Below, piece after piece: positions 3,838 through 55,292 of a stretch of DNA of 64,000 bases. This DNA is from Escherichia phage DT571/2: the sequence record NC_047749.1. The stretch is one strand, 5' to 3'. The position numbers were made by a program, and so were the translations under genes. Numbering within the stretch: the first letter of the stretch is position 1; every line of letters begins with the position of its first letter. The notes under the pieces were generated by a model. That model searched no databases and had not been told where the DNA came from. It saw only the letters and a list, made by a program, of their open reading frames with translations.

Positions 3838-3937
3838 GGTATAAACTCCAATTAATTTAATTTAAGGGATAAGATTAACATAATGTTAATCGTTATATTT
3901 CCCCAATAGTTCGGGGAAATATAAAGTTAACACTAAA

Positions 3938-4189
3938 CTATGCTACAGCTTCCAATTTTTCGTTACGTTGAACAACTTTTACAACGTCGCCAGATTTAAC
4001 GCGAACACTAAAAACGGTTTTTCCGTTGTTGCTACGTTCCGTTTCTGCATATACTGCATCAATTACATCGAACGGCATGAGCGCCGCGCCTTTGATGCGT
4101 TCGGCCTTTCCGGTTGCCTCGTCTGTTTTAGTAACGAAAGGGATGAAAACGGATTGACCAATTTTTGGCGCGGTGATAGCGTTTTTCAT
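3938..4189 (-). CDS. hypothetical protein
   Basis: 83-aa ORF. Confidence 0.5.
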   Translation of the reverse strand: MKNAITAPKIGQSVFIPFVTKTDEATGKAERIKGAALMPFDVIDAVYAETERSNNGKTVFSVRVKSGDVVKVVQRNEKLEAVA

Positions 4190-5568: not shown

Positions 5569-5872
5569 GGTTATCCTACTGTATATTTATCCAGGGTAAA
5601 AAGATAGTGTTTACAACTGCAATCAATTTTGAGCGGCCTAAAACGCTTTCTAACGAGCTGATCGCTGTAGGGTAATATTAAAGTAAAGCCTTTACCCGTC
5701 GGCCTAGAGGCTTCGCCGTGTTTTGCTCTTTACTGCACCGCTGCGCGGTTAGCATAAAACTAGGTGTTAGGCAAGAAAAATAAAAAGTAAAGTAAACGTT
5801 GCCCCTAGAAAGAAAATAATTTTACCGGTAACATCGAAAGCGGGTAATAATTAACCTAATGTAAAGTTTTGT

Positions 5873-5901
5873 AAGGCCCGCCATAATCAGCGGCCTTTTT
5901 T
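5873..5901 (+). terminator. putative rho-independent terminator
   Basis: stem AAGGCC/GGCCTT with 13-nt loop followed by TTTTTT. Confidence 0.45.
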
Positions 5902-5965
5902 GTTATACTGCCCTTACACCGTTTAAGGACGGTTAAAAATTTCCCGAAAAATTTGGAGGCTTAAA

Positions 5966-6145
5966 ATGGTTATTTTTCGATCTATTCTGGCGGGTATCTT
6001 GGGCGCTATTTTAACTCTATTTGCTACCGCTTACGGTATTCAAGATTCTTATTGCGGTTTAGTAAATACTAAACCTATGGTTATTATTGGCGCGGGTATC
6101 GCTGTTTTTTCTTATTTGCTGGGCTGCATGAATAAAGGAGAATAA
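5966..6145 (+). CDS. small membrane protein (59 aa, not in ORF track)
   Basis: GGAGG SD then ATG; hydrophobic translation MVIFRSILAGILGAILTLFATAYG... Confidence 0.45.
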   Translation: MVIFRSILAGILGAILTLFATAYGIQDSYCGLVNTKPMVIIGAGIAVFSYLLGCMNKGE

Positions 6146-6147
6146 AA

Positions 6148-6360
6148 ATGATCCGCAACGTTTCTCTTGCTCGTTCCAAAGGTTTTAAGCTGGTGGATGT
6201 AAACACGTTCGAGCGTCCTGGTTGTAAAATCGAATATATAGCGCGGAATAAAAACGCTTTCCGCGTTACAGAAAAGAGATTCGATAAACGCGGCAACGTG
6301 ATAGCTGAAACGGTTAAATATTTTGCCACCTTTTACGCGGCCTTTCGTGGGGTATTATGA
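6148..6360 (+). CDS. hypothetical protein
   Basis: 70-aa ORF with AGGAG SD. Confidence 0.5.
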   Translation: MIRNVSLARSKGFKLVDVNTFERPGCKIEYIARNKNAFRVTEKRFDKRGNVIAETVKYFATFYAAFRGVL

Positions 6361-6482
6361 AGAGCGTTGTTATTGTTATCCTTGCAATGGTTGGCGGTTT
6401 TACCACCACCTTGTTTAGAAATGATCCTCTTTTGCTAGGGATCTTTATGCTTTTATCTGGTTATCTGATCGGGAGGTTATAA
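6357..6482 (+). CDS. small membrane peptide (41 aa)
   Basis: ATGA start/stop overlap with upstream ORF; hydrophobic. Confidence 0.35.
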   Translation: MKSVVIVILAMVGGFTTTLFRNDPLLLGIFMLLSGYLIGRL

Positions 6483-6483
6483 A

Positions 6484-6828
6484 ATGGTGATTTATGAAGG
6501 TGATCGCCTTGTTGCTGATTGCCGTCCGGCATTGTTAGCAAACTACTTAAACCAGCTTTCGCCAGTATATAAAGGCGTTATAAATATTTATGAAGGCGGG
6601 GCGCATTATAAGATTAATGCGGTCGTTGCCCGTGAACTAGCGTTTCAATTTTTAACCTTTTCATCTTGCAATATTCAGGTCATGGGTGAGGCGTTAATTG
6701 CAGAAAATGAAGATGATTTTATTAATATCTTTCGCAAGATATGCACCGAGCGCCTGATAATGAAAGGGGCATATATTCAATCCACTGCGGATAGTATTGA
6801 AACGGCTTTTCGAAAGGTGGCACAATGA
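6484..6828 (+). CDS. hypothetical protein
   Basis: 114-aa ORF with GGGAGG SD. Confidence 0.5.
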   Translation: MVIYEGDRLVADCRPALLANYLNQLSPVYKGVINIYEGGAHYKINAVVARELAFQFLTFSSCNIQVMGEALIAENEDDFINIFRKICTERLIMKGAYIQSTADSIETAFRKVAQ

Positions 6829-24893: not shown

Positions 24894-24968
24894 TGGTGCG
24901 GGATACGAGAGTCGAACTCGTGTCTACTGGTTGGAAGCCAGTTATTCTAGCCGCTGAACTAATCACGC
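24894..24968 (-). tRNA. tRNA-Gly (anticodon UCC)
   Basis: hand fold: encoded CCA, perfect T-arm ACGAG/TTCGACT/CTCGT, anticodon arm ACTGG-CTTCCAA-CCAGT. Confidence 0.7.
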
Positions 24969-24979
24969 ATTAATTTGGT

Positions 24980-25057
24980 TGGCAGGGGATATTGGATTTG
25001 AACCAATGATCTCGACTTCAAATGCCGTAGCTTTAGGCCAAGCTAAGCTAATCCCCA
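24980..25057 (-). tRNA. tRNA-Gln (anticodon UUG), U1-U72 mismatch
   Basis: hand fold: CCA, G73, T-arm ATTGG/TTCAAAT/CCAAT, anticodon loop ATTTGAA. Confidence 0.55.
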
Positions 25058-25063
25058 ATTGTT

Positions 25064-25139
25064 TGGCAGAAGGTAGTGGATTTGAACCACTGATCAGGGT
25101 TTCAGAGACCCCAGCCTTAACCGACTTGGCTCAGGTTCT
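25064..25139 (-). tRNA. tRNA-Gln (anticodon CUG), imperfect acceptor stem
   Basis: hand fold: CCA, G73, D-arm resembling E. coli tRNA-Gln, anticodon loop CTCTGAA; 5' boundary uncertain. Confidence 0.5.
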
Positions 25140-25303
25140 TCAAGGCGCTTACCTTCATGATCTACTCGAATGAGTCCACATCCTTCGCAAACCACAACTG
25201 CACCATAACCTTCTTTGACCTCAGCTTCTGTAATCAGACCAGAAAGATCACCAGTATCTCTGCCCCACATATCAATGGAGCATTGTTTGCAGAAATCAGC
25301 CAT
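25094..25303 (-). CDS. small zinc-ribbon-like protein; 3' end overlaps tRNA-Gln
   Basis: 69 aa; CxxC...CxxC (CKQC, CEGC). Confidence 0.4.
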   Translation of the reverse strand: MADFCKQCSIDMWGRDTGDLSGLITEAEVKEGYGAVVVCEGCGLIRVDHEGKRLEEPEPSRLRLGSLKP

Positions 25304-25305
25304 AA

Positions 25306-25533
25306 TTAATCCTTATTACAAGTGGTAGAGAGGATGGTACGATCGGAGATCCAACCGCCAGTGTAAGCACCATTGACTTTATATTCAGTCAAAGTACCGT
25401 GACCACGAATAGCGAAAACTGTTAGGGTTTTCGTGCCCCCATAACCATCTTTAACAGTTACGGTACAATCTAATGATGTGCCGATAGTGCAGCCAGCTAA
25501 AGTCAGAGCAGCAATCAATACTAAGTATTTCAT
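25306..25533 (-). CDS. lipoprotein
   Basis: 75 aa; signal peptide with lipobox LAGC. Confidence 0.55.
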   Translation of the reverse strand: MKYLVLIAALTLAGCTIGTSLDCTVTVKDGYGGTKTLTVFAIRGHGTLTEYKVNGAYTGGWISDRTILSTTCNKD

Positions 25534-25556
25534 GTTGTTATCCTTGTTAAGTTAAT

Positions 25557-25631
25557 TGGTGCATCCTCAGGGAATCGAACCCCAATCGTAAAGTTCGTGG
25601 CTTTACATTCTTTCCATTGAAATAAGGACGC
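25557..25631 (-). tRNA. tRNA-Arg (anticodon ACG)
   Basis: hand fold: CCA, perfect anticodon stem TAAAG/CTTTA, loop CCACGAA (C at position 33). Confidence 0.65.
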
Positions 25632-25637
25632 AATATT

Positions 25638-25714
25638 TGGGGTGGCTAGTGGAATTCGAATCCACATAGGCCTGATTCACAATCAGGATCATTAACCAAT
25701 TATGATATAGCCAC
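25638..25714 (-). tRNA. tRNA-His (anticodon GUG)
   Basis: hand fold: perfect acceptor GTGGCTA/TAGCCAC, T-arm GTGGA/TTCGAAT/TCCAC, anticodon loop TTGTGAA, CCA encoded. Confidence 0.8.
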
Positions 25715-25938
25715 AATTGAAAACTCGCAGGGTTAGCGAAACCATCCTCAATTAGCATGTTCTAGAATACTAATCAAGTTATCTCCTATTGCACGCAGCT
25801 CAAGACGAGTACGAATTTTCAATTGTGGCGGCTCTCAGAAACTCTTCTATTCTAGCCTCAGAAGCTTACCCCCGAACGCATGTCGGGAAAGTCTTTCCAA
25901 GAGCATCAAATAGCACCGTTACACTTTGAGCCATTATT

Positions 25939-26033
25939 TGGAGGTAGGTAAGGGGATCGAACCCTTACACCGTATCACTACGATCAACCGATTTCAAGTC
26001 GGAGTCCAGCGCCAGCCGTTGGATTGACCTACC
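25939..26033 (-). tRNA. tRNA-Ser (anticodon UGA), class II
   Basis: hand fold: perfect acceptor and T-arm, anticodon loop CTTGAAA, long variable arm. Confidence 0.7.
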
Positions 26034-26045
26034 ATATAAATTGTT

Positions 26046-26136
26046 TGGCGGAAGAGGAGAGATTTGAACTCTCAAGCCGTTTTACCAGTCAGCCACTTTC
26101 CAAGCGGTTTTCGTCGCCAATTCGATTTGCTCTTCC
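26046..26136 (-). tRNA. tRNA-Ser (anticodon GGA), class II
   Basis: hand fold: perfect acceptor GGAAGAG/CTCTTCC, T-arm GAGAG/TTCAAAT/CTCTC, loop TTGGAAA. Confidence 0.65.
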
Positions 26137-26172
26137 AATAATAAGATGATGCCTCTATCACGCCAGGCAGTT

Positions 26173-26245
26173 ACGCCTCGCTGGGATTCGAACCCATTAA
26201 AACAGCTCAACCGAGATAGTAGGTTTAATTTACTCTGACCATCAA
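26173..26245 (-). tRNA. tRNA-like element (T-arm only, no acceptor pairing found)
   Basis: canonical T-arm TGGG/TTCGAAT/CCCA at 26181..26197 but no complementary 5' acceptor located. Confidence 0.3.
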
Positions 26246-26248
26246 ATT

Positions 26249-26325
26249 TGGTGCGTGACAAGGGATTCGAACCCTCAAAACCCGACTTCTAGGGACGGTA
26301 TGTATGCCAATTCCATCAATCACGC
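26249..26325 (-). tRNA. tRNA, anticodon not confidently assigned (loop CCTAGAA would give UAG)
   Basis: hand fold: CCA, good acceptor and T-arm, anticodon stem with one U-U mismatch, D-arm unclear. Confidence 0.55.
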
Positions 26326-26330
26326 GTATT

Positions 26331-26405
26331 TGGTGGAGAAAGAGGGAGTTGAACCCTCGTCTTCTGCGTGCAAAGCAGATGTTCTACCATTAAACTATAT
26401 CCCCA
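26331..26405 (-). tRNA. tRNA-Ala (anticodon UGC)
   Basis: hand fold: CCA, T-arm GAGGG/TTCAACT/CCCTC, perfect anticodon arm TCTGC-TTTGCAC-GCAGA. Confidence 0.65.
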
Positions 26406-26642
26406 AATTCTTTAGTTTACTAAGGCTATTAGCTCGGCGTAACTACAGCACCTTCACTTCGAGCGGAAGGAACCGCGTCATCTCGCAAACCCGATACACT
26501 ATTCAGTTGCCGCTGAATCTAGTGGACTAATCTAGAACCTCCCCCAAATTGTAGGGATCGTGCTTTTTGGCAGCCAGTCCTAGGTCGAGCTAATACCTTA
26601 GTGAACTATGATGAGGATTTCTCCCCATCAATTTATATAAAT

Positions 26643-26671
26643 ATTATAACAAGAAATTAAGCATCAAGCAA
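26643..26671 (-). promoter_or_regulatory. T5-early-type promoter driving the tRNA cluster
   Basis: RC of TTGCTT-17-TATAAT; no ORF downstream, leads into tRNAs. Confidence 0.55.
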
Positions 26672-26772
26672 ATGAGTTTTTCCTTGAAATTGGTAGCGGG
26701 TTCCAGTACTGCCCTGGACTTACTTAGCTTATGAGACTAAGAAGAACTCTATGCCTTCCACCCGCAATTGTT

Positions 26773-26836
26773 TGGTCAGTGCGGCAGGACTCGAACCTGC
26801 GACCTGAAGCATCCAAGGCTCCCACGCTACGCACTG
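26773..26836 (-). tRNA. atypical 64-nt tRNA-like element (no room for a D-arm)
   Basis: CCA, perfect 7-bp acceptor CAGTGCG/CGCACTG and perfect T-arm GCAGG/TTCGAGT/CCTGC, only 29 nt between them. Confidence 0.4.
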
Positions 26837-26844
26837 AAAGTTTA

Positions 26845-27192
26845 TTAGTTTAACCGTAAAGTATTATCTACTTCACCATTAATTGTTCGGCATTCCTCTG
26901 GGATTGTCGGAGTGGCCTTGTATTCCCACCACTCAGCACCGTCATATTCCCCACGTTCTAGCCAAGTTCCATCGGCAAACCATACATTACCATAAAGTAA
27001 TTGTCCACCGTATCCAGAATCATATTCAAAGTCTAGGTTATTAAGAAAATCCTCAATATCTTCTTCTGTATAACCTAAAGGTAATACCCAGACTTTTTTA
27101 TCCCCATAATACCCGAATTCTATTTTAATACACTTAACTTTAGAATTGGTATTTTTTAAGGCGAGTAATAGCTCTTCTTTAGCATTACGCAT
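26845..27192 (-). CDS. hypothetical protein
   Basis: 115-aa ORF. Confidence 0.55.
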   Translation of the reverse strand: MRNAKEELLLALKNTNSKVKCIKIEFGYYGDKKVWVLPLGYTEEDIEDFLNNLDFEYDSGYGGQLLYGNVWFADGTWLERGEYDGAEWWEYKATPTIPEECRTINGEVDNTLRLN

Positions 27193-27217
27193 AGTATATT
27201 CTCATACTGAGTTAATT

Positions 27218-27291
27218 TGGCGCGACCGATGGGATTTGAACCCACATTCCCCGTGACAGGGGAGTACCATTACCAAGCCAGCCCCTGTCGC
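27218..27291 (-). tRNA. tRNA-Asp (anticodon GUC)
   Basis: hand fold: CCA, T-arm, anticodon loop CTGTCAC. Confidence 0.7.
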
Positions 27292-27300
27292 ATAATTCAT

Positions 27301-27486
27301 TTACTCATATTTGAGTTTTTCAATAGCTGCATTAAGTTCTTTTAGAGCTTCACGACGTTCTACCTGACCTTGAAGTTCTTCAAGAAGTTCCGCTTTCAGA
27401 GTCTCAATAATTTTACCACGAACCTTGATATTATTAATCAGATTATCACGATCAGCTTCTAGTCGAGCAATTGCATGAGTTGTCAT
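27301..27486 (-). CDS. small coiled-coil protein
   Basis: 61-aa ORF. Confidence 0.45.
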   Translation of the reverse strand: MTTHAIARLEADRDNLINNIKVRGKIIETLKAELLEELQGQVERREALKELNAAIEKLKYE

Positions 27487-27513
27487 ATCTATTTCCTCAG
27501 TTATTAATGAAAA

Positions 27514-27586
27514 TGGTATCTGTGGCTGAATTCGATGTCAGCAATGATAGCTGGTTGGCTACCGGTTTACTTAACTCTACACAGAA
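27514..27586 (-). tRNA. tRNA-like element with non-canonical loops (possible pseudo-tRNA)
   Basis: CCA plus 6/7 acceptor pairing, but T-loop and anticodon loop are 8 nt. Confidence 0.3.
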
Positions 27587-27588
27587 TT

Positions 27589-27666
27589 TGGCGGGCCGTG
27601 TAGGATTCGAACCACCAACCCCGAAGGGCACGGATTTACAGACCGCTGCAATAGCCATTCTGCCAA
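27589..27666 (-). tRNA. tRNA-like element with Tyr-like anticodon loop CTGTAAA (degenerate)
   Basis: CCA, weak T-stem, variable-arm hairpin CCC-TTCG-GGG, no acceptor pairing found. Confidence 0.35.
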
Positions 27667-27750
27667 CGATGTATATTTAAAAGTATTCAAATACTTGTTT
27701 AAACACTTTTAAATATGTTTCCAACTTAGATAACTATTATATCTAGGTTT

Positions 27751-27792
27751 AAGGCACTGAGCAAGTCAGATTTTGAAGAATTTGCTCAGTGC
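27751..27792. other. stable hairpin (11-bp stem GCACTGAGCAA / TTGCTCAGTGC)
   Basis: read directly; lies in leader between promoter at 27868 and tRNAs. Confidence 0.6.
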
Positions 27793-27867
27793 TATATTAG
27801 TTAGTCGAACTTAGGAGTAACAATTAAAGAGAATGGGAGTTCGAAAACTTCATCAATTTATATAACT

Positions 27868-27897
27868 ATTATATCAGAAATTTAAAGCAAAAGGCAA
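27868..27897 (-). promoter_or_regulatory. T5-early-type promoter (tRNA leader)
   Basis: RC of TTGCCT-18-TATAAT with conserved leader. Confidence 0.45.
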
Positions 27898-27927
27898 GTA
27901 CTTTTTTAAAAATTCTGTTTGGAGGAG

Positions 27928-28134
27928 CTAAACTCCAGATTCTTCAGCCAAGTCTAGACTAATAAGAGTTATAGCCATAATTGCCGCACCGTGTTCTTTT
28001 TCTCCGGTGTTTTTAGCAGAGTCTATAATACCCTTAATCTGTTCGTAATAACTTTTTACTTCTTGTTCAATGCCGGCCTCGGCTATCATGCCTTTAGTCA
28101 TGAGTCGTTGCATGGTAATTTCACGGTTAGCCAT
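27928..28134 (-). CDS. hypothetical protein
   Basis: 68-aa ORF. Confidence 0.45.
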   Translation of the reverse strand: MANREITMQRLMTKGMIAEAGIEQEVKSYYEQIKGIIDSAKNTGEKEHGAAIMAITLISLDLAEESGV

Positions 28135-28309
28135 GATGTTTCTCCAGTTTCATCTTTAATAGTTTACAAATGAAGTCAATATCTTCATCCGTGCCTAGAT
28201 CTCTATCTTCAAGAGTTGCCTTGAAGTTTTTAGTCAACTCCATAAGGATGACTTCCCTAGAACGACGTGTTGGCGGAGGTGGATGTCTATACATCTTATT
28301 TCCTTAATT

Positions 28310-28384
28310 TGGTGGGTCGGAGGAGAATCTAACTCCTACTCGTTAGCTTATGAGGCCACCGCTTTAACTTTAAGCTACCGACCC
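28310..28384 (-). tRNA. tRNA-Met (anticodon CAU)
   Basis: hand fold: perfect acceptor GGGTCGG/CCGACCC, perfect T-arm, D-stem GCTT/AAGC, loop CTCATAA. Confidence 0.75.
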
Positions 28385-28390
28385 TATGTT

Positions 28391-28479
28391 TGGCGGAAGA
28401 AGCGGGAATCGAACCCACAAGGCTATATTTCAAACCGACAGATTAGCAATCTGCTGCAATACCGTTATGCTATTCTTCC
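28391..28479 (-). tRNA. tRNA-Ser (anticodon GCU), class II
   Basis: hand fold: perfect acceptor GGAAGAA/TTCTTCC, anticodon arm GCAGA-TTGCTAA-TCTGT, long variable arm. Confidence 0.7.
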
Positions 28480-28500
28480 GAATTTATAAGATATATTATA

Positions 28501-29037
28501 TTAGAAATTTAGCTTCATAGCAAGAAAATTTTTCAAGTTTTCGGTAGACATCTCATCCACATCTACAGGAGAAACAAACCCATCTAATTGTCTAGCAAAT
28601 TTTTCACCGGCAGGATCATTATCCCCAACAGCTACCAATTTAAAAGGTAGTAATTTCAATTGCTTTAACAACGCTTTTCCGGGGGAAGAACCCAACATTG
28701 CTAGGGCAGGATAACCAGCATTATGTAATGCTACAGCCTTAAATACAGATTCAGCAATCAATACTACTTTTTCATCCCCATTGAGAGTTTCTAGCCCCCA
28801 TACACACTGTGTGGTAGAATAAGTAAAATATCTAGCTTCAGAGGGGCACTTACCATGACCTTTTGGAGCAGAAGGATTATAAATCTGATAGCCTCTCAGC
28901 ATCCCAGAGAAGTCGTACAATGGGACTGTTAGCCATCCCTCCGGGCTTAACCAGCAATGATATTTATCTGTATCAAACCCTCTGGATAAGAGATGTTCTG
29001 TTAGTTCATCAACAGTCATATTAGATTCCTCTCTCAA
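28501..29037 (-). CDS. small Toprim-like domain protein
   Basis: 178 aa; LIAESVFKA and VAVGDNDPAGEKFA resemble Toprim E and DxD motifs. Confidence 0.5.
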   Translation of the reverse strand: MREESNMTVDELTEHLLSRGFDTDKYHCWLSPEGWLTVPLYDFSGMLRGYQIYNPSAPKGHGKCPSEARYFTYSTTQCVWGLETLNGDEKVVLIAESVFKAVALHNAGYPALAMLGSSPGKALLKQLKLLPFKLVAVGDNDPAGEKFARQLDGFVSPVDVDEMSTENLKNFLAMKLNF

Positions 29038-29048
29038 ATTATAAATAT

Positions 29049-29077
29049 ATTATACAGAGAATTTAGCATTCAAGCAA
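29049..29077 (-). promoter_or_regulatory. T5-early-type promoter
   Basis: RC of TTGCTT-17-TATAAT. Confidence 0.55.
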
Positions 29078-29163
29078 TTGAATTTTTAAACTTTTTAGTG
29101 GAAAATCTCAAGACATTTAATGGCAGCACGTTGTTGCTGTAATAAGAGTATATGGTTCTAAAG

Positions 29164-29206
29164 AACCAAACAATAAAGCCCTGCGCTCTCCAGGGAACGC
29201 AGGGCT
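29164..29206 (-). terminator. rho-independent terminator
   Basis: 9-bp GC-rich stem AGCCCTGCG/CGCAGGGCT followed on the minus strand by a U-rich tract. Confidence 0.65.
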
Positions 29207-29230
29207 TACTTCAGAGATTACATGCGGGTG

Positions 29231-30178
29231 TTATTTGTTACGCATGTCCATGATCATCTGGCCATCGTAACCAGTTCCCACAACTGTTTGCGGTACACCA
29301 CCTTGATACTTCTGAGCACGAATCATTTCAACTTCTAGTTGTTTCCAACGAATCATCTCAGGAGTAATGGTACGTTGCAGAGCGGCGTTAGCCTCAGCTT
29401 CTTTCTTAGCTGCGTACAGTTTAGCATCTGCATCACGTTCGTTTGCAATAGCTTGGTTGTTACGAGCTTCACGATCTGCTTCTGCTTGTTTAACCTTCTG
29501 CTGTGCTTCTTGTTCAACACGAGCCAACTCAGCTTTCGCAGCATTAACTTGTTCTTCACGAACTTTGGTATTCTGTACCTGTTCCATGATTACAGGCGGC
29601 AAAGTAATATCCTGAAGGAACACTTGCTTAACTGTGTAACCATAAGGGCGTGCATACTCTTCAACTTCCTGTTGAATTGCAGTTTGTAATTGAGCCTGAA
29701 TTTTAGCATCAAACAAATCTTGTGCTTTAGGAACAGACTTGCCGAACTCACGAATAGTAGACAGTAATTTTTCAGTTACATATTTGTCTAACGCTTGATC
29801 CTGAGTACCTGCATTAATACGGTTAATCGGTGCCTTAGAACCATCAAATTGTAACATAACAGTCAGGTCAACAGTGGATTTAAACTTATCCTGACTAGGA
29901 ACCTGAAGTTTATCTAATTTTACAGCAATATCTTTTGTACTAAAAGTATCGAAAGATGCAAAGGGGTTTACAAGATGGAAGCCAGGTAATACTGGGTTAG
30001 GATCTACTTTACCAAGAAATGTTTGGGTTTTAACCGTACCATCGGAAACAATAGTATATGAATTAAAAGCTAGGATTAAACCTGCTAAACCAACTACAGC
30101 ACCAATACCCCAACGTTTAATAGTGCGCATTACTTTTTGCTCAGAAGTCAGTTCTTTCATATTTTTAGTATTAAACAT
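29231..30178 (-). CDS. SPFH/band-7 (HflC/prohibitin-like) membrane protein
   Basis: 315 aa; N-terminal TM helix, SPFH-like core, Ala/Glu/Lys-rich coiled-coil tail. Confidence 0.7.
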   Translation of the reverse strand: MFNTKNMKELTSEQKVMRTIKRWGIGAVVGLAGLILAFNSYTIVSDGTVKTQTFLGKVDPNPVLPGFHLVNPFASFDTFSTKDIAVKLDKLQVPSQDKFKSTVDLTVMLQFDGSKAPINRINAGTQDQALDKYVTEKLLSTIREFGKSVPKAQDLFDAKIQAQLQTAIQQEVEEYARPYGYTVKQVFLQDITLPPVIMEQVQNTKVREEQVNAAKAELARVEQEAQQKVKQAEADREARNNQAIANERDADAKLYAAKKEAEANAALQRTITPEMIRWKQLEVEMIRAQKYQGGVPQTVVGTGYDGQMIMDMRNK

Positions 30179-30212
30179 GTATTTCCTTTGTTTTAGTTAC
30201 AGTTAATAAAAT

Positions 30213-30287
30213 TGGCCGAGGTGACAGGATTCGAACCTGCATAAAGGAATTTAGAAGACTCCTGCCTCTCCCTTAGACTACACCCCG
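30213..30287 (-). tRNA. tRNA-Arg (anticodon UCU)
   Basis: hand fold: CCA, acceptor with one G-U, T-arm, anticodon arm GGAGT-CTTCTAA-ATTCC. Confidence 0.65.
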
Positions 30288-30788
30288 TTTAAGTATTTTT
30301 AAGAACTCTCGTAAAAACTCTTAAAAATACAGACGATACCGGGAGAGTCATAAGTCTCACTCATTAAGTATTTCAAGACAAAATACAGTAACGTCTATTA
30401 TTTTCCAGTTTAAGTCAAGGTGACTTAGTGGTTATGCCCTGCGGTATACTGAGGACTCGGTTAGGCTAGGGTCATGACTCCCCGCTTTTTGCTGCTACTC
30501 AACAGGAATTATCGCGAATTACCTGTGCTATTGTGCACCATTAGTGGCATCTCTCATGCCAGCATTTCCCACTTTGTGGATAGTTTGAAAAACTACTCCG
30601 ATATGGAGGGAGAACTTCACTATCCTAGAATACCTTCTAAAGTTCTTCTTTAGCCTGGACATAGTTAAATCGTAATAAAACTATTCAGCAGACTGGTTGG
30701 TTAGCCTGGAACCAACTACCGCGTGGTTTAGGCAGTGCGCAACTAACCTCGGAAGCTTTTACGTTAAAAGCACCAGTTATCCAGTTCT

Positions 30789-30860
30789 TACCGATCGTAG
30801 GATTCGAACCTACATCTTCCACCAGTTACGGCTTGATAATACCGTTTATACTAGATCGGC
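30789..30860 (-). tRNA. tRNA, CCA not encoded, anticodon undetermined
   Basis: perfect T-arm GTAGG/TTCGAAT/CCTAC and 7-bp acceptor with one G-U. Confidence 0.5.
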
Positions 30861-43370: not shown

Positions 43371-45197
43371 ATGACAGAGAATGAATTAATTGAGAATTGC
43401 AAAGGTCTGCTCACTCTAACTGCGGATAAAGACTTACAACATAATAATGCTAATAAGCCTAGTGAGATGTTCCATACTCAAAGAGACTTATTGGCCGGAG
43501 AAATCAACAAGTATCTAGTATCGCAGGAATTACCCAAACATCTATTAGACGCCCATAATCTAGGTAAGATACACATTCATGATATGGATTACAGAGCACA
43601 GGGGTACACTAACTGTTGCTTAGTAGACCTTGGTGGCATGCTGAAGAATGGTACTAAAATTGGTAATGCAAATATTGAAACTCCTAAATCCATAACTACT
43701 GCATGTGCAATCACTGCTCAGATTATTGCACAAGTATCTGGTGCTCAGTATGGTGGCACCTCTATTGATCGTATCGACGAGGTTCTAGCCCCGTATGTCA
43801 GAAAGTCTTACAATAAACATCTGGGTCGTGGTCTACGTTGGCTCAAGGATGAAAGAAAAGCTGCCGTGTACGCTACTGAGCTTACTGAAAAAGAGTGTTA
43901 TGATGCATTCCAAGCCCTAGAGTATGAAACTAATTCATTATTTAACTCTAACGGACAGACTCCTTTTGTTACGCTTGGCTTTGGGCTAGGACAGGGGTGG
44001 GAGGAAAGGATGATTCAGAAAGCCATCCTCCAAAATCGTATTAAAGGTTTAGGTGCTGCTGAGTCAACCCCTATCTTCCCTAAACTAGTATTCTCAGTTA
44101 AAGAAGGATTAAATAAAAATCCAGGCGATCCTAACTACGATATAAAACAGCTAGCACTTGAGTGTTCTGCTACCCGTATGTACCCGGACTATTTAAGTTA
44201 CGAGAAAGTTGTAGCTGTTACTGGTGATTTTAAAGCTCCTATGGGTTGTCGTAGTTTTTTATCTGCTATCCCCTCTGGAGAAATTGCAGGGCGTAATAAT
44301 TTAGGTGTAGTGTCTATCAATCTACCTATGGTTGCTGCTGAGGCAGATGGAGTTTTTGAAGATTTCTGGGATATTCTAGACAAATATGTGGATGAGGCTT
44401 TTGAAGCACATGACTTCTTCTTAAACAGACTGAAGAAAGTTAAGGCTAAACAAGCCCCTATTCTTTATATGCACGGTGGTTTTGGTGTACGTTTAGATGG
44501 GGAAGAGTATGTATGGCCTATTTTTGAAGGTAGATCCTCTGTATCTCTTGGGTATATTGGGGTCTATGAGATGTGTCAAATAATGTTTAGTTTACCACAG
44601 ACTCATAGGGACTGTATTGAATTTACAGAGGAGGTTCTCACTCACCTAAAAAATCGTTGCGAAGTTAAAGCTAATGAGACTAATCTTGGGTTTAGCTTGT
44701 ATGCAACTCCTAGTGAGTCTCTATGTAATCGCTTTAATAAACTACTGGAACGTAGGTTCCCTGAGTATTCTTGGCTAACAGATAAAGGTTATCTCACTAA
44801 TAGTCATCATTTGGACGTAAGGGAGAAGGTAGCTCCAGATACTAAATTTGAGTATGAAGCTCATTTCACCAAAATAGCTAATGGTGGTAATATATCATTT
44901 GTGGAACTACCACAAATGAAAAAGTTCCATAAAGCTCTTGAATACGTAGTAGATAAGGGACTAGAATGTAGCCATTATATTGGTGTTAATATACCGATTG
45001 ATGAGTGCTTCAACTGTGGGTATATGGGTGAATCTGTTGCCTCTGAACGTGGGTTTGTATGTCCGAGTTGTGGATCTGAAGAAATAGAGGTTACACGTAG
45101 GGTTTGCGGGTACCTGGGGTCCCCGGGCAGTAGGCCTTTCAATTCTGGGAAACAAAAAGAAGTGCTTGGTAGAGTAAAACACTTAAATCTTAAGTAA
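43371..45197 (+). CDS. nrdD: anaerobic ribonucleoside-triphosphate reductase
   Basis: 608 aa; C-terminal glycyl-radical motif RVCGYLG and zinc ribbon CFNCGY...CPSCGS. Confidence 0.9.
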   Translation: MTENELIENCKGLLTLTADKDLQHNNANKPSEMFHTQRDLLAGEINKYLVSQELPKHLLDAHNLGKIHIHDMDYRAQGYTNCCLVDLGGMLKNGTKIGNANIETPKSITTACAITAQIIAQVSGAQYGGTSIDRIDEVLAPYVRKSYNKHLGRGLRWLKDERKAAVYATELTEKECYDAFQALEYETNSLFNSNGQTPFVTLGFGLGQGWEERMIQKAILQNRIKGLGAAESTPIFPKLVFSVKEGLNKNPGDPNYDIKQLALECSATRMYPDYLSYEKVVAVTGDFKAPMGCRSFLSAIPSGEIAGRNNLGVVSINLPMVAAEADGVFEDFWDILDKYVDEAFEAHDFFLNRLKKVKAKQAPILYMHGGFGVRLDGEEYVWPIFEGRSSVSLGYIGVYEMCQIMFSLPQTHRDCIEFTEEVLTHLKNRCEVKANETNLGFSLYATPSESLCNRFNKLLERRFPEYSWLTDKGYLTNSHHLDVREKVAPDTKFEYEAHFTKIANGGNISFVELPQMKKFHKALEYVVDKGLECSHYIGVNIPIDECFNCGYMGESVASERGFVCPSCGSEEIEVTRRVCGYLGSPGSRPFNSGKQKEVLGRVKHLNLK

Positions 45198-45204
45198 GCT
45201 AATC

Positions 45205-45240
45205 AGCCAGGTTGCTAGTCGACCTGGCTTTTATTTTATT
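45205..45240 (+). terminator. rho-independent terminator after nrdD
   Basis: 8-bp stem AGCCAGGT/ACCTGGCT then TTTTATTTTATT. Confidence 0.7.
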
Positions 45241-45789: not shown

Positions 45790-46629
45790 GTGAGGAATTG
45801 TACAGTGCGTAGATTAATTATTATTAGCGGTGCAGGTTTGAGTGTTGAAAGTGGTGTACGAGCCTTCCGTACTGATACTGCTAGTGGTAAAGCATTGTGG
45901 GATGATTATGATCTAGAAGAAGTATGTAATATTCATGCCTTTCGGGGTAATTTTTACCATAAAACCCACACGTTTTACAACAAACGTCGTGAAGAGTTAG
46001 AAACTGTTGAACCCAATCTTGCACACTTGCGTATTGGTGAATGGTATAAGAAATACCCAGGTCAAGTAGTAAACTTGACTACTAACGTTGATGATCTTAT
46101 TGAGCGTGCTGGCGTTCCACATAGTGACATTCTGCACATTCATGGATACTTAAAGGAGGTTGTTGTAGCTGATAGCTACAACAGTAGTAATAAACGAATT
46201 ATTGATGTTGGGTATAACTCTATTGACCCAGATGATTATAAATGGGTTAAACCTAATGTAGTCTTCTTTGGTGAGCATGCTCCAGCGTACGCAGAAATGT
46301 ATAATATTTTTGATGGTATTACCAGTCAAGATATGATCATTATGGTTGGTTGCTCTAACCAAGTAATTAACTTCTACTGGGAATTATTCCCTGTTCTTAA
46401 TCTGACTGCTGCAAAACTTATGGTGGTTAACTACTACGATAGTGCTCTAGCGGTGGGACCAGGCTATCAAGGTATGACTCGTAGTGAGATGTACCAACTG
46501 GAAGAACGGGGTATTCCTTACTGGGGTAAAGGTGCGGTAGATGCTTTCAGTGACCCTGATTTTATTGCTCGTGTGGAAGCCCATCTAGAGGGTAGACCTT
46601 ATATGCCGGGAAAACAGATATGTCCATAG
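45790..46629 (+). CDS. Sir2-family (sirtuin-like) NAD-binding protein
   Basis: 279 aa; GAGLSVESGVRAFR, TTNVDDL, HIHGYL, VVFFGE; no zinc-ribbon Cys. Confidence 0.75.
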   Translation: MRNCTVRRLIIISGAGLSVESGVRAFRTDTASGKALWDDYDLEEVCNIHAFRGNFYHKTHTFYNKRREELETVEPNLAHLRIGEWYKKYPGQVVNLTTNVDDLIERAGVPHSDILHIHGYLKEVVVADSYNSSNKRIIDVGYNSIDPDDYKWVKPNVVFFGEHAPAYAEMYNIFDGITSQDMIIMVGCSNQVINFYWELFPVLNLTAAKLMVVNYYDSALAVGPGYQGMTRSEMYQLEERGIPYWGKGAVDAFSDPDFIARVEAHLEGRPYMPGKQICP

Positions 46630-46802
46630 TTAAATCTGTGTATACACATCCCGATGATATATTTGTATGGGCGGATGGTAGTTGGTGTTATCGATGTGAG
46701 TTATGGGAAATGGACTATAAATCCGATGACTATGGTGTCATATATGTTGATACGGTTGAGTATGATATGTTCTTAGAAAGGAACAAAAATGGAAATAAGT
46801 AA
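46620..46802 (+). CDS. hypothetical protein
   Basis: 60-aa ORF. Confidence 0.45.
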   Translation: MSIVKSVYTHPDDIFVWADGSWCYRCELWEMDYKSDDYGVIYVDTVEYDMFLERNKNGNK

Positions 46803-47295
46803 TACTCCAATTATTTTTCTAGACATTGATGGGGTGCTCAACTCGAGCATCTCCCATCACCATGCACCTGATGATGAAAAGATTTTCTTTGGAAGTGACT
46901 GGGTTTTTAAACCGCTTCTCAAGGCTTTTCAGGACTTTATTCGTCCTTCTCCAATAATGATTGTTGGGGTATCTTCATGGTTCTCTGTCAGGAATGAGGT
47001 GGAGAACGTTCAGATTATGACCAGATTAGATCTTATCGATCGTTTTCTTGGTATAACGGATTTTACTGGTGGTGGGCTATCTAGGGGTAATTCTGTTCTT
47101 CGCTTCGTCGAAAAGCATAAGCTCAAACATTGGTGTGTGCTGGATGATGCTGGTGCTATGATGTATCAGTATCCAACAGTTATAGTCAACGGTAGAACTG
47201 GAATAAATCTTCAAGACTTAAGAGCTGTTAGCTATATGTTAGAATTTAGTCCAGATCTTGAAATGTGTAAAGCCCTACAACAATTTAAGGTGTAA
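46789..47295 (+). CDS. HAD-like hydrolase
   Basis: 168 aa; motif I FLDIDGVLN, later VLDDAG. Confidence 0.6.
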   Translation: MEISNTPIIFLDIDGVLNSSISHHHAPDDEKIFFGSDWVFKPLLKAFQDFIRPSPIMIVGVSSWFSVRNEVENVQIMTRLDLIDRFLGITDFTGGGLSRGNSVLRFVEKHKLKHWCVLDDAGAMMYQYPTVIVNGRTGINLQDLRAVSYMLEFSPDLEMCKALQQFKV

Positions 47296-47297
47296 AT

Positions 47298-47726
47298 ATG
47301 TTCAATAATGTATTCTCTAAAGAAGCTAACCCAATATTGGTTAATTTTTGGCGTACTCTTCCAGCCAACCTGTACAATGAGGCTATTAATGCTCTGAAAA
47401 TATGGTGTGAGAATAATGAAATCTCCTTTGCTTTTAAGGATGAGATTGAAGAAGCTCCCTGTATTGGTTTAATTGTGCAGGTAGAGGATGGCTTTGAAGA
47501 GATTATCGGATGGAAAGAGCTGGATGAAATGGGATTGGTTTTTGCATTAAACTATAAGCTATTTATGCCCAATAAACACCGTATTGTTGTTAATTATAAA
47601 ACCAGTGAATCTCCGGGCTTTCAAGTTAATGAACATTACGGTTGGTCTTACTCACCGGAAGAAGTAAATGATGGTATCCAAAGACTTCGTCGTTTTGGTT
47701 ATCAAATTCCGGGTTTAACCGCCTAA
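47298..47726 (+). CDS. hypothetical protein, tandem paralog A
   Basis: 142 aa; shares blocks with the next ORF. Confidence 0.55.
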   Translation: MFNNVFSKEANPILVNFWRTLPANLYNEAINALKIWCENNEISFAFKDEIEEAPCIGLIVQVEDGFEEIIGWKELDEMGLVFALNYKLFMPNKHRIVVNYKTSESPGFQVNEHYGWSYSPEEVNDGIQRLRRFGYQIPGLTA

Positions 47727-47735
47727 GGGGACACA

Positions 47736-48128
47736 ATGGAACAAGTATATTGGCGTCAGATTGATCCTAGTTTGGTGAAGAGTGCGGAGAAGCTGCTACA
47801 ACGTTGGTTGGGGGTAAGACAAGCCTCCTTCACTTTTCCGGAGCAGCAAATAGACGATCCCTGTGTTGGTGTTTTCCTATCAGGCTACGCTAGGGAAGTG
47901 GAATTGGATTGGAATGAATTGTCTGCTATGGGTTTAATTGTTGCACTAAATTTCTCTTTGTTCCATCCACGTGGGTTGGCAATATGTCGTGTGCCTGATG
48001 ACGGTTGTTCGCCCCATCTTTTACAGGTGGAAGATGATATTTGGGAGTACCCTCCAGATATTCTCAAAGAAGCTAAAGAACAATTAAATCGTGTTGGGAT
48101 TTATGTTCCAGGCCTGAATGATGAATGA
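47736..48128 (+). CDS. hypothetical protein, tandem paralog B
   Basis: 130 aa; similar to upstream ORF. Confidence 0.55.
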   Translation: MEQVYWRQIDPSLVKSAEKLLQRWLGVRQASFTFPEQQIDDPCVGVFLSGYAREVELDWNELSAMGLIVALNFSLFHPRGLAICRVPDDGCSPHLLQVEDDIWEYPPDILKEAKEQLNRVGIYVPGLNDE

Positions 48129-48219
48129 TTTTTATTAGCTGAACTCTGATTACCGAGTCATTTTGGCTCGGTTTTCTCTATGCTCAAAGACACTGGTAGC
48201 AGCCCCTGGAAAAATTTAC

Positions 48220-48248
48220 TTGCTTGATGCTCAAAATCTTGATATAAT
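48220..48248 (+). promoter_or_regulatory. T5-early-type promoter with no ORF for about 600 nt
   Basis: TTGCTT-17-TATAAT plus leader AATTGAGAGAC but no start codon. Confidence 0.6.
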
Positions 48249-48842
48249 ATTTATATTGAATTGAGAGACATTAGTAAAAATTGATTTTGCTAATTTTTCT
48301 TAGTGAAGCTGACAAGGGATTTACGGCGAGAGGAATCGATGACCCGTAAATAGCTGCATAAGGTACGTTGCTAGAGCTTTACGAAAAAGTTTTTTCTTGT
48401 TTACAATCCGCGATACGGAACAGTTAGGCTGCCCCATTAAGGGTTGTTTTAACTATTACTAGTGTTTATATTGCATTAGTTAACCTTCAATTAAGTGATC
48501 TGTGTACCCTGAATTCGGAAAGGTAAATCCAAACCGTGCATATTTAGCTCGTTATATAGGCAGAGCTTTATATGGGGGTGCGAACGAAAAGAGCAGCGAA
48601 TGGCGGCACGTACAGTAGTCACCTACCAATAGGATAGTGAGGACAAGTAGAATCGGCTTAGCGGCCAATGACCTAGGTTCTATTCTGTATAAGAGCGAAG
48701 AGAGCACAGCACTGAGATATGATAACTTATTCATATTGTTTGATGATAATTGATGTTTACGTAAATAGTAGTAATAGTTGTTCTATTCTTTCTGAATAGT
48801 CCTAAAGAAAAGATTTCGATTAACCAACACAGGAGTATTATT

Positions 48843-54328: not shown

Positions 54329-55292
54329 TGTAAAAGAATTTATTAAACGCTGTCAAGAAGCATATTATCAAGGCATGTCTTTAATCTCTGATGAAGAATA
54401 TGATCGCCTGGTAAAACGCTTCCCGTTAGAGGAAGAGATCGGGCCTAAGGGTGATATTCCACATCTATACCGTATGTATTCTTTACAGAAAGTTTATTAT
54501 AATCGTGGAGATAAACCCCCATTTAACCCGTTAGGTCAAGTAGAAACTGATAAGTTAGATGGTTGTGCAATTTCCCTGCTATATATTAATGGCGAATTTG
54601 TTCAAGCACTAACTCGTGGTAATGGTATTCTGGGAAATGATGTCACAAGCAACGTAAGATTGCTGAACATCCCTAAAAAGATTTCTCAAAAAGTACCTAC
54701 TCAAATCACTGGTGAAGTTCTAATTACAAAAGAAGTAGAAAATAAACGTAACTTTGCCTCTGGTGCTATTAACCTCAAAGATAGTGATGATTTCGTACAG
54801 CGTATCGGGGAAGGTGGTTTAATCTTCGTTGCATACGGTATCCAGTGTTCTGCTGAATCTGTAGGTATTACAGAAGCGTATTTAAAAGATATGCTTTGGC
54901 TAGAGAATGAGAACTTCTTAACAGTTGTTAATGTACGTTCCTTCTTTAAATGGATTCCAACGGACGGTAAAGTTGTTCGTATTAATGATAACAACAAATT
55001 CTTCCGTGAAGGCTGGACTAATAAATTTCCTCGCGGTGCATTTGCTATTAAAGAGGATGAAGAAGGTGAGACTACAACTCTTACTAAAGTTGAATGGAAT
55101 GTAGGGGCTTCTGGTAAAGTAACTCCAGTCGGTTATTTTGAACCAGTAATTATTGATGATGCTACAATTGTTAAAGCGACTCTTAATAACGTTGATTATA
55201 TTAACTCTCTCGATCTAGAGATCGGTTGCCAGATTCGAGTGATTCGTGCTGGTGGTGTAATCCCGTGCATAGTAGAACGAGTATACGATTAA
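54318..55292 (+). CDS. NAD-dependent DNA ligase, N-terminal adenylation part
   Basis: 324 aa; adenylation motif KxDG (ETDKLDGCAIS). Confidence 0.8.
   Translation: MMTNVKEFIKRCQEAYYQGMSLISDEEYDRLVKRFPLEEEIGPKGDIPHLYRMYSLQKVYYNRGDKPPFNPLGQVETDKLDGCAISLLYINGEFVQALTRGNGILGNDVTSNVRLLNIPKKISQKVPTQITGEVLITKEVENKRNFASGAINLKDSDDFVQRIGEGGLIFVAYGIQCSAESVGITEAYLKDMLWLENENFLTVVNVRSFFKWIPTDGKVVRINDNNKFFREGWTNKFPRGAFAIKEDEEGETTTLTKVEWNVGASGKVTPVGYFEPVIIDDATIVKATLNNVDYINSLDLEIGCQIRVIRAGGVIPCIVERVYD

What the first reader, a model, noticed from the sequence alone, without database searches (positions are those of the whole stretch)
47298..48128. Tandem paralogous genes
Two adjacent ORFs of 142 and 130 aa share blocks (DDPC[IV]G, W.EL..MGL[IV].ALN..LF.P) indicating duplication and divergence.
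Basis: seen in the sequence. Interest (0 to 1): 0.45.

Follow-up and report, generated by a model that had tools for sequence, protein, structure and literature searches.

The report
Tandem DUF7415 gene pair, T5-like phage
Two neighbouring small genes in this T5-like phage genome are real, ancient duplicates of one uncharacterised phage protein family (DUF7415); the duplication is ordinary and already catalogued, and the proteins' function is still unknown.

Summary
ORF A (47298-47726, 142 aa) and ORF B (47736-48128, 130 aa) align over 126 residues at 31% identity (BLASTP E 6e-20; Smith-Waterman z = 27 against shuffles). The window is a T5-like phage (96% identical to Bf23 and T5). The ORFs are the orthologues of T5.106 and T5.107, annotated 'hypothetical', and both fall in Pfam DUF7415 and PHROG 2502. 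They are the last two genes of an early operon: Sir2, a 60-aa ORF, a HAD phosphatase, A, B, terminator. The duplication is old. A-type and B-type copies sit in tandem in Markadamsvirinae and Sugarlandvirus, while Serratia T5-like phages have one copy directly after Sir2. Both copies are under purifying selection (dN/dS 0.06-0.34). Divergence is asymmetric: B keeps the family's core motif (WNELS..GL..N..LHPxGLA..G.S), and A has lost about half of it. The roughly 55-residue core also occurs alone or fused to ASCH/DUF3850, a MazG-like dNTP pyrophosphohydrolase, thymidylate kinase or HTH domains in many phages. It often lies next to replication or ribonucleotide-reductase genes. Confident AF2 models have no relative in the PDB. 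Function is unknown. My best inference is a small acidic binding or adaptor module, possibly working as an A:B hetero-complex.

The parts
47298..47726 (+). ORF A, 142 aa, the orthologue of T5.106. It is a two-domain DUF7415 protein of the A type, with a degenerate core motif, and is acidic (pI 4.7).
   Evidence: ORF list. 96% identity to T5 and Bf23 and the T5 annotation. Pfam DUF7415 at 113 bits and phrog_2502 at E 3.6e-62. AF2 model with pLDDT 87 and pTM 0.82. dN/dS 0.06-0.10. pI.
47736..48128 (+). ORF B, 130 aa, the orthologue of T5.107. It is a two-domain DUF7415 protein of the B type, with an intact core motif, and is acidic (pI 4.5).
   Evidence: ORF list. T5 annotation. Pfam DUF7415 at 107 bits and phrog_2502 at E 5.7e-60. 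It scores 66.6-68.5 bits against a profile built only from stand-alone core proteins. dN/dS 0.08-0.34.
47493..47654 (+). The C-terminal DUF7415 core of A (residues 66-119). The motif is degenerate: 6 of the 13 nearly invariant family positions are kept. S, H, G, L, A and G of the LS..HPxGLA..G.S pattern are replaced, giving LD..MPNKHR..S.S.
   Evidence: Only 30.5-31.7 bits against the stand-alone core profile. Positions were read from alignment A3 and the alignment.
47901..48053 (+). The C-terminal DUF7415 core of B (residues 56-106): LDWNELSAMGLIVALNFSLFHPRGLAICRVPDDGCSPHLLQVEDDIWEY. It keeps 12 of the 13 nearly invariant family positions.
   Evidence: hmmsearch alignment. Invariant and nearly invariant columns of A3.
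47287..47292 (+). Shine-Dalgarno-like AAGGTG, 5 nt before the ATG of A. The stop of the HAD gene (47293-47295) lies between them, so the genes are tightly packed.
   Evidence: Read directly from the sequence.
47725..47731 (+). Shine-Dalgarno-like AAGGGGA overlapping the stop codon of A, 4 nt before the ATG of B. The A-B spacer is 9 nt.
   Evidence: Read directly from the sequence.
48152..48180 (+). Intrinsic terminator (ACCGAGTCATTTTGGCTCGGT followed by a T-run) that ends the operon 24 nt after B.
   Evidence: Terminator scan. The same site is annotated as a terminator in T5 and Bf23.
46789..47295 (+). The upstream operon gene, a HAD-family phosphatase (HAD_SAK_2), orthologue of T5.105. It is context, not a paralogue.
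   Evidence: Pfam PF18143 at E 2.3e-20 over 138 of 139 model positions. It sits directly upstream of A in every Markadamsvirinae locus with enough flank.
45790..46629 (+). The upstream operon gene, a Sir2-family protein, orthologue of T5.102. It is the only neighbour of the DUF7415 gene(s) kept throughout the Demerecviridae examined.
   Evidence: Pfam SIR2 at E 1e-24. Synteny in T5, Bf23, IME260, Slocum and Kamaji and in IMG/VR loci.

Best explanation
SHOWN. ORFs A and B are the T5.106/T5.107 orthologues of a T5-like phage. They are true paralogues from an ancient tandem duplication of a two-domain DUF7415 gene. They are co-transcribed as the last two cistrons of an early operon (Sir2, 60-aa ORF, HAD phosphatase, A, B, terminator), and both are maintained by purifying selection. 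Each is a small acidic alpha+beta protein. It has a lineage-specific N-terminal part plus the roughly 55-residue DUF7415 core (helix, helix, beta-hairpin, helix). That core is widespread in phages and prophages and has no solved structural relative. B keeps the ancestral core motif. A has lost about half of the nearly invariant positions, yet evolves even more slowly than B.

INFERRED. The core is a binding or adaptor module rather than an enzyme. In other phages it is fused to, or replaces, domains that handle nucleotides or nucleic acids. It also sits beside replication-initiator and ribonucleotide-reductase genes. In T5-like phages I infer that the pair has subfunctionalised. The most likely form is an A:B hetero-complex in which B supplies the canonical binding surface and A a diverged one. 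It would act early in infection in the Sir2/HAD/nucleotide-replication neighbourhood. The target (a nucleic acid, a nucleotide or a host protein) is not known.
For: Paralogy: BLASTP E 6e-20, z = 27, the same Pfam and PHROG families, and the same fold.

Identity: 96% to Bf23 and T5, with the T5.106/T5.107 annotation.

Operon: terminators after nrdD (45205-45229) and after B (48152-48172), with tight gene spacing and SD sites.

Age of the duplication: both types are in tandem in Sugarlandvirus IME260, where the A-type ORF is under-annotated. The A clade has 87% bootstrap support. Serratia phages Slocum and Kamaji have a single copy.

Constraint: dN/dS is 0.06-0.10 for A and 0.08-0.34 for B. The A-B order is invariant in 22 IMG/VR T5-like loci.

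Asymmetry: against a stand-alone core profile, B scores 66.6-68.5 bits and A 30.5-31.7 bits, and the IME260 A-type copy is not detected at all.

Core distribution and fusions: 160 representative clusters. Fusions to thymidylate kinase and dATP/dGTP pyrophosphohydrolase, to DUF3850/ASCH, and to DUF5405 and HTH_37.

Contexts: directly after replication initiator gpA, in the Orf91 slot of P2-like prophages. Between nrdD and nrdG in a T4-like phage.

Against: No experiment or paper bears on function. The core has conserved polar residues (invariant N, nearly invariant H, S, S and Y), which could equally mark a catalytic or ligand site, so 'not an enzyme' is an inference. Contexts are heterogeneous. 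In 14 P2-like contigs the core gene sits in the late operon between head-completion gpL and tail gpX, which does not fit a replication or nucleotide role. The position of the single-copy proteins in the tree is unresolved (A+single 38% bootstrap). It is therefore not proven that the ancestor looked like B.
Confidence: 0.5

Rival explanations
1. A and B are counter-defence (anti-immunity) proteins. They would be small acidic early proteins that bind and inhibit host defence factors, and the duplication would let the phage cover two targets or variants.
For: They are early-operon, small, acidic proteins. The core domain is scattered across unrelated phage groups (T5-like, T4-like, P2-like) and in moron-like positions. 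Examples are the border of the P2 old/tin defence hotspot and the slot between gpL and gpX. No housekeeping function is assignable.
Against: The pair is present in the same place in every Markadamsvirinae locus examined, in Sugarlandvirus, and as a single copy in Serratia phages. It is under strong purifying selection (dN/dS as low as 0.06). This is core-gene behaviour rather than the presence/absence variation and fast evolution typical of arms-race genes. No anti-defence library was available to test against, and PADLOC holds defence proteins only.
Confidence: 0.2
2. The DUF7415 proteins of T5-like phages are dedicated partners, regulators or substrates of the phage sirtuin encoded upstream. 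An analogy is operon-encoded sirtuins that modify a neighbouring small carrier protein.
For: Sir2 is the one neighbour conserved with the DUF7415 gene(s) in all Demerecviridae lineages examined. In Serratia phages the single DUF7415 gene abuts or overlaps the Sir2 stop codon with nothing in between. The phage Sir2 keeps the sirtuin motifs GAGxSxxSG, TxNxD and HxHG, read from the translation.
Against: One T5-like contig (L103) has lost Sir2 and a third of HAD but keeps intact A and B. Outside Demerecviridae the core domain occurs without any Sir2 neighbour. Adjacency in a compact phage operon is weak evidence of interaction.
Confidence: 0.2
3. Each protein is itself an internal duplication of the DUF7415 unit, so the locus carries four tandem units (N and C halves of A and of B).
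For: The 53-position Pfam DUF7415 model matches the N and C halves separately and well above its 27-bit threshold: A at 64.6 and 52.2 bits, B at 57.4 and 54.0 bits. Both halves have the same order of elements in the AF2 model: Trp, helix, beta-hairpin.
Against: Independent profiles do not link the halves. A profile of stand-alone cores gives -1 to -3 bits on the N halves. hhalign of N against C profiles gives 3-22% probability. An N-domain HMM finds only marginal hits (E 0.008-0.1) on core-only proteins, and these fall in two different registers. The Pfam result may simply reflect a mixed seed alignment.
Confidence: 0.3
4. The two genes are not an in-situ duplication. The second copy was acquired horizontally from another phage and happened to land next to the first.
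For: The core domain is highly mobile among phages. Neighbouring genes in this region are mosaic: nrdD and Sir2 each occur as two alleles of 50-60% identity among T5-like phages.
Against: A and B share the lineage-specific N-terminal domain and the C-terminal (I/V)PGL tail, which are found only in the two-domain Demerecviridae-type proteins. They are adjacent, in the same order and on the same strand, in every two-copy genome examined.
Confidence: 0.08

Closest known systems
Pfam DUF7415 (PF24187) / PHROG 2502, including phage T5 proteins T5.106 (YP_006934) and T5.107 (YP_006935)
   Same: A and B are near-identical orthologues of these T5 proteins (region 96% identical at the DNA level). They score 113 and 107 bits on the Pfam model and E about 1e-60 on phrog_2502.
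   Different: Nothing differs in kind. The family has no known function, and I found no paper that mentions it. The paralogy, its age and the asymmetric loss of the motif are not stated in the annotations.
P2 Orf91 slot proteins (DUF3850/ASCH-like, DUF3850+DUF7415 fusions, or DUF7415 alone) in P2-like prophages
   Same: They carry the same roughly 55-residue core with the WNELS..GL..RIN.E.LHPLGLA..G.S motif that B keeps. They are early-operon genes next to replication functions, directly after initiator gpA.
   Different: They lack the N-terminal domain and the PGL tail of the T5-type proteins, are single-copy, and are often fused to a PUA-like ASCH/DUF3850 domain. P2 Orf91 itself has only DUF3850. 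Their function is also unknown.
Small ORF between nrdD and nrdG of T4-like Klebsiella and Cronobacter phages (for example Mineola gp067, 77 aa)
   Same: It is a stand-alone DUF7415 core (about 38-41% identical to the core of B) overlapping nucleotide-metabolism genes. In T5-like phages the operon also starts just after nrdD.
   Different: It has only the core, a single copy, and no Sir2 or HAD neighbours.
Sirtuin-plus-small-substrate operons (for example bacterial SirTM with GcvH-L). This is an analogy from general knowledge and was not tested here.
   Same: A sirtuin gene is directly followed by a gene for a small acidic protein.
   Different: There is no sequence or fold relation to lipoyl-carrier proteins. 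No macrodomain or lipoate ligase is in the operon. The link is adjacency only.

Membership tests
Pfam DUF7415 (PF24187) | Whole-protein score above the curated gathering threshold (27 bits) | tested here: met
   A scores 113 bits and B 107.2 bits. Each half on its own also scores 52-65 bits.
PHROG 2502 (two-domain T5-type proteins) | Full-length match to the 134-position profile | tested here: met
   A matches residues 11-142 to profile positions 2-134 at E 3.6e-62. B matches residues 1-129 to positions 4-134 at E 5.7e-60.
DUF7415 core as found in stand-alone proteins | Conservation of the nearly invariant positions S, G, L, I, N, H, P, G, L, A, G, S, Y of the motif WNELS..GL..(R)IN..(I)LHPxGLA....G.S....Y | tested here: met
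   This row concerns B, which keeps 12 of 13 positions and scores 66.6-68.5 bits against a core-only profile.
DUF7415 core as found in stand-alone proteins | The same motif positions, tested in ORF A | tested here: not met
   A keeps 6 of 13 positions. S to D, H to M, G to K, L to H, A to R and G to S are the losses. It scores 30.5-31.7 bits. The IME260 A-type orthologue is not detected by the core profile. A is still a homologue, but a motif-degenerate one.
'Exonuclease', 'tail tube protein' and 'RNA-binding protein' (names attached to homologues in some records) | Detectable similarity to a nuclease, tail-tube or RNA-binding family or structure | tested here: not met
Known anti-phage defence proteins (PADLOC-DB) | Match to any defence-system HMM | tested here: not met
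   No family at E <= 0.01 for A, B, HAD, Sir2 or the small operon ORFs.
Known anti-defence proteins (Acr, Ocr-like and others) | Homology to a characterised inhibitor, or experimental inhibition of a defence system | not testable with these tools
   No anti-defence library is offered. PDB sequence and fold searches return no such protein.
   9-nt spacer and the same frame. E 6e-20 over 126 of 130 residues. z = 27. TM 0.84-0.91 to a model of a B-type protein.

The most novel reading that the evidence does not exclude
DUF7415 is a new small fold that recognises a nucleotide, a nucleic acid or a host replication/nucleotide-metabolism protein. In T5-like phages the A:B pair would form an obligate pseudo-symmetric heterodimer, with one canonical and one degenerate site. 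It would work with the phage sirtuin, as its regulator, target or targeting subunit, to reprogramme host metabolism or evade NAD- or nucleotide-based immunity early in infection.
Probability: 0.12. Interest if true: 0.6.

Novelty: already known. Interest (0 to 1): 0.25.

Why it matters
As a duplication it matters little, because tandem paralogues of small accessory genes are common in large phages. The modest value lies elsewhere. These are conserved genes of unknown function, under purifying selection, in the model phage T5. They belong to a domain family spread over T5-like, T4-like and P2-like phages, with no solved structural relative and no literature. The family is repeatedly fused or adjacent to nucleotide and replication functions. 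The asymmetric pair, with one canonical and one motif-degenerate copy that are both constrained, gives a concrete and cheap experimental handle: hetero-complex formation, deletion phenotypes and ligand binding. That could assign a function to the whole family. The analysis also corrects several misleading database names.

Tried and rejected
1. Looking for a known function by sequence. Pfam, PHROGs, NCBIfam, PADLOC and PDB sequence searches return only DUF7415 and unknown-function PHROGs.

3. Testing an internal repeat. hhalign and HMM tests of the N half against the C half were negative or marginal, although Pfam's model hits both halves. This is left unresolved.

4. Building a pseudo-multimer.

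5. Fetching more two-domain loci. The alignment was too divergent for the search for related loci, and P0048 found nothing in viral contigs. A degenerate DNA pattern recovered mainly known T5-like phages.

6. The neighbourhood of the core gene in Aeromonas phage 65.2. Ten neighbours had no Pfam hit.

7. Literature. Searches for DUF7415, T5.106, T5.107, T5p10x and orf91 found nothing relevant. Papers on DUF3850, phage Sir2 and Clover defence did not mention these genes.

8. The database names 'exonuclease' and 'tail tube protein' were rejected as unsupported.

Full report
**What is at the coordinates.** The window carries two + strand ORFs in the same frame, 9 nt apart: A at 47298-47726 (142 aa) and B at 47736-48128 (130 aa). 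Each has a Shine-Dalgarno-like sequence just upstream: AAGGTG at 47287-47292, and AAGGGGA at 47725-47731 overlapping A's stop. BLASTP of A against B gives 31% identity and 48% positives over 126 residues, with E = 6e-20. A Smith-Waterman score of 162 compares with 28 +/- 4.9 for 500 shuffles, so z = 27. The block DDPC[IV]G is in B only, because A has EAPCIG. A six-frame scan of the whole window with family HMMs finds only these two copies.

**Where the window comes from.** The 2.2 kb around the pair is 96% identical to Escherichia phages Bf23 and T5, and it matches 524 phage records, nearly all T5-like. A and B are the orthologues of T5.106 (YP_006934) and T5.107 (YP_006935), both annotated 'hypothetical protein'. 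They close an early operon. It starts after the nrdD terminator (45205-45229) and ends at a terminator 24 nt after B (48152-48172) (the same features are annotated in T5 and Bf23). The operon contains small ORFs, a Sir2-family gene (45790-46629; Pfam E 1e-24), a 60-aa ORF, a HAD phosphatase of the HAD_SAK_2 type (46789-47295; E 2.3e-20), and then A and B. The replication-origin-binding/helicase gene follows at 48843.

**Family.** Both proteins hit Pfam DUF7415 (113 and 107 bits against a 27-bit threshold) and PHROG 2502 (E about 1e-60), which is of unknown function. NCBIfam, PADLOC and PDB sequence searches give nothing. No paper in the library mentions DUF7415 or these locus tags. Some records name homologues 'exonuclease', 'tail tube protein' or 'RNA repair protein'. 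Nothing supports those names.

**Two layers in the family.** An exhaustive profile search found 160 representative clusters (E <= 1e-3). Only about 20 have the full two-domain architecture. The rest match only profile positions of roughly 65-120. This roughly 55-residue core has the consensus idWNelSelGLi.RIN.EiLHPlGLA..Rdp.tG.S.g.lv..DG.WeY. It has an invariant N and G, and nearly invariant S, G, L, I, H, P, L, A, G, S and Y.

**Fusions and contexts of the core.** The core occurs alone (62-110 aa) or fused to other domains:
- thymidylate kinase and a dATP/dGTP pyrophosphohydrolase;
- DUF3850/ASCH, in many cases;
- DUF5405 and HTH_37;
- Cox, which lies in deleted P2 remnants and is probably a deletion product.

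In P2-like prophages the core occupies the Orf91 slot directly after the replication initiator gpA and before the old/tin hotspot. P2 Orf91 itself is DUF3850 only. In 14 P2-like contigs it lies in the late operon between gpL and gpX. In the T4-like phage Mineola a 77-aa core gene overlaps both nrdD and nrdG. In bacterial genomes, verified hits are mostly Gammaproteobacteria, plus a Campylobacteraceae MAG and a Bacteroidales MAG.

**History of the duplication.** All 22 IMG/VR T5-like loci that span the site have A then B. HAD is directly upstream wherever the contig reaches. Sir2 is further upstream in all but one: L103 lacks Sir2 and part of HAD but keeps A and B. Klebsiella Sugarlandvirus IME260 seemed to have one copy by tblastn. 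Reading the ORFs shows an under-annotated 133-aa A-type gene (L004:3588-3989) overlapping the start of the 131-aa B-type gene. Serratia T5-like phages Slocum and Kamaji have a single 163-164-aa two-domain gene that abuts the Sir2 stop, followed by a terminator (annotated in Slocum) and obp. A neighbour-joining tree puts all A-type proteins from both lineages in one clade with 87% bootstrap support. B-type and single-copy proteins are less resolved (B+P0060 54%, A+single 38%). The duplication therefore predates the split of Markadamsvirinae and Sugarlandvirus. Consistent with that, synonymous sites between A and B are saturated (pS 0.67).

**Selection and asymmetry.** Against orthologues at 65-97% identity, dN/dS is 0.06-0.10 for A, 0.08-0.34 for B and 0.06-0.10 for HAD. 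Both are therefore functional genes. Against a profile built only from stand-alone cores, B scores 66.6-68.5 bits and keeps 12 of 13 nearly invariant positions. A scores 30.5-31.7 bits and keeps 6 of 13, with LS..HPRGLA..G.S becoming LD..MPNKHR..S.S. The Sugarlandvirus A-type copy is not detected at all. Single-copy proteins keep the motif. After duplication one copy evidently kept the canonical site and the other lost it, yet the latter remains at least as constrained. This is a pattern of subfunctionalisation that often accompanies hetero-oligomers. All members examined are acidic, with pI 4.2-4.9.

**An unresolved point.** The 53-position Pfam model matches the N and C halves of both proteins separately, at 52-65 bits. 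That would make four units in tandem. My own tests do not support this. A core-only HMM gives negative scores on the N halves. hhalign gives 3-22% probability. An N-domain HMM gives only marginal hits, in two different registers. The order of secondary-structure elements is compatible with a repeat, but I could not superpose the halves. The Pfam seed may be mixed.

**Mechanism.** What is shown is this: ancient tandem paralogues, co-transcribed early, both under purifying selection, asymmetric motif retention, a fold with no solved relative, and a promiscuous core domain. What is inferred (about 0.3-0.5) is that the core is a binding or adaptor module. It would act on a nucleic acid, a nucleotide or a host protein tied to replication or nucleotide metabolism, and A and B would work together, probably as a hetero-complex.

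**Rivals.** There are four:
- a counter-defence role, which fits small, acidic, early, mobile proteins but is hard to square with core-like conservation and low dN/dS;
- a dedicated partnership with the phage sirtuin, for which adjacency is conserved across Demerecviridae, though L103 keeps A and B without Sir2 and other phages have the core without Sir2;
- a four-unit internal repeat;
- horizontal acquisition of the second copy, which is unlikely because A and B share the lineage-specific N domain and PGL tail.

**Verdict.** These are the known hypothetical genes T5.106 and T5.107, already grouped by Pfam and PHROGs. What remains of interest is the unknown function and unmatched fold of a widespread phage domain, and the asymmetric paralogue pair as an experimental entry point.

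Noticed in passing
window 46789-47295 (orthologue of T5.105): This gene is named 'Sir2 (NAD-dependent deacetylase)' in RefSeq T5 and in the phrog_18062 label. It is in fact a HAD-family phosphatase (Pfam HAD_SAK_2, E 2.3e-20, full-length match). The true Sir2 is the separate gene at 45790-46629. The name appears to be a propagated annotation error.
   Followed up: partly
L004:3588-3989 (Klebsiella phage vB_Kpn_IME260, KX845404.2 about 54603-55004): The A-type paralogue is annotated as a 95-aa protein (locus 3702-3989). The ORF extends to a 133-aa protein that aligns full-length with T5.106-type proteins, so the start is mis-called.
   Followed up: yes
window 43371-45197 (nrdD) and 45790-46629 (Sir2), compared with loci L101-L127: Among otherwise closely related T5-like phages, nrdD occurs as two alleles. 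They are about 98-99% or about 55-60% identical to the window's protein, and T5 itself carries the distant one. Sir2 likewise occurs at about 94% or about 50% identity. This is mosaic allele replacement around the A-B pair.
   Followed up: no
L103 (IMGVR_UViG_2706796320_000001), locus 5785-6743: This T5-like contig lacks the Sir2 gene and the first third of the HAD gene, but keeps nrdD, A and B intact. It is a natural deletion that separates A/B from Sir2.
   Followed up: partly
window 48173-48842: A roughly 670-bp stretch between the operon terminator and the obp gene has no + strand ORF of 40 aa or more. It contains short direct repeats (TTTCTCTATGCTCAAA / TTGCTTGATGCTCAAA, and two copies of TA.T.TTTATATTG.ATT) and an 18-nt inverted repeat with arms 293 nt apart. 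T5 and Bf23 annotate an early promoter here. Part of this stretch is where the megablast match to T5 breaks into pieces.
   Followed up: partly
window 24897-30860, minus strand: A cluster of 12 tRNA genes above the Rfam gathering score, as expected for the tRNA region of T5-like phages.
   Followed up: no
L014-L016 (E. coli contigs next to yegR/yegS): The 129-aa 'Cox + DUF7415' fusion proteins lie in a decayed P2-like prophage: integrase, repressor, the fusion, then portal. The whole early operon between cox and the Orf91 slot is missing. The fusion looks like a deletion product rather than a designed architecture.
   Followed up: partly
P0057, P0070, P0078, P0114 and other large hits: Very large or internally repetitive proteins (for example 13 copies of a 53-aa unit) match profile positions of about 95-134 many times. 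By inspection these look like spurious repeat-driven hits and were excluded.
   Followed up: partly
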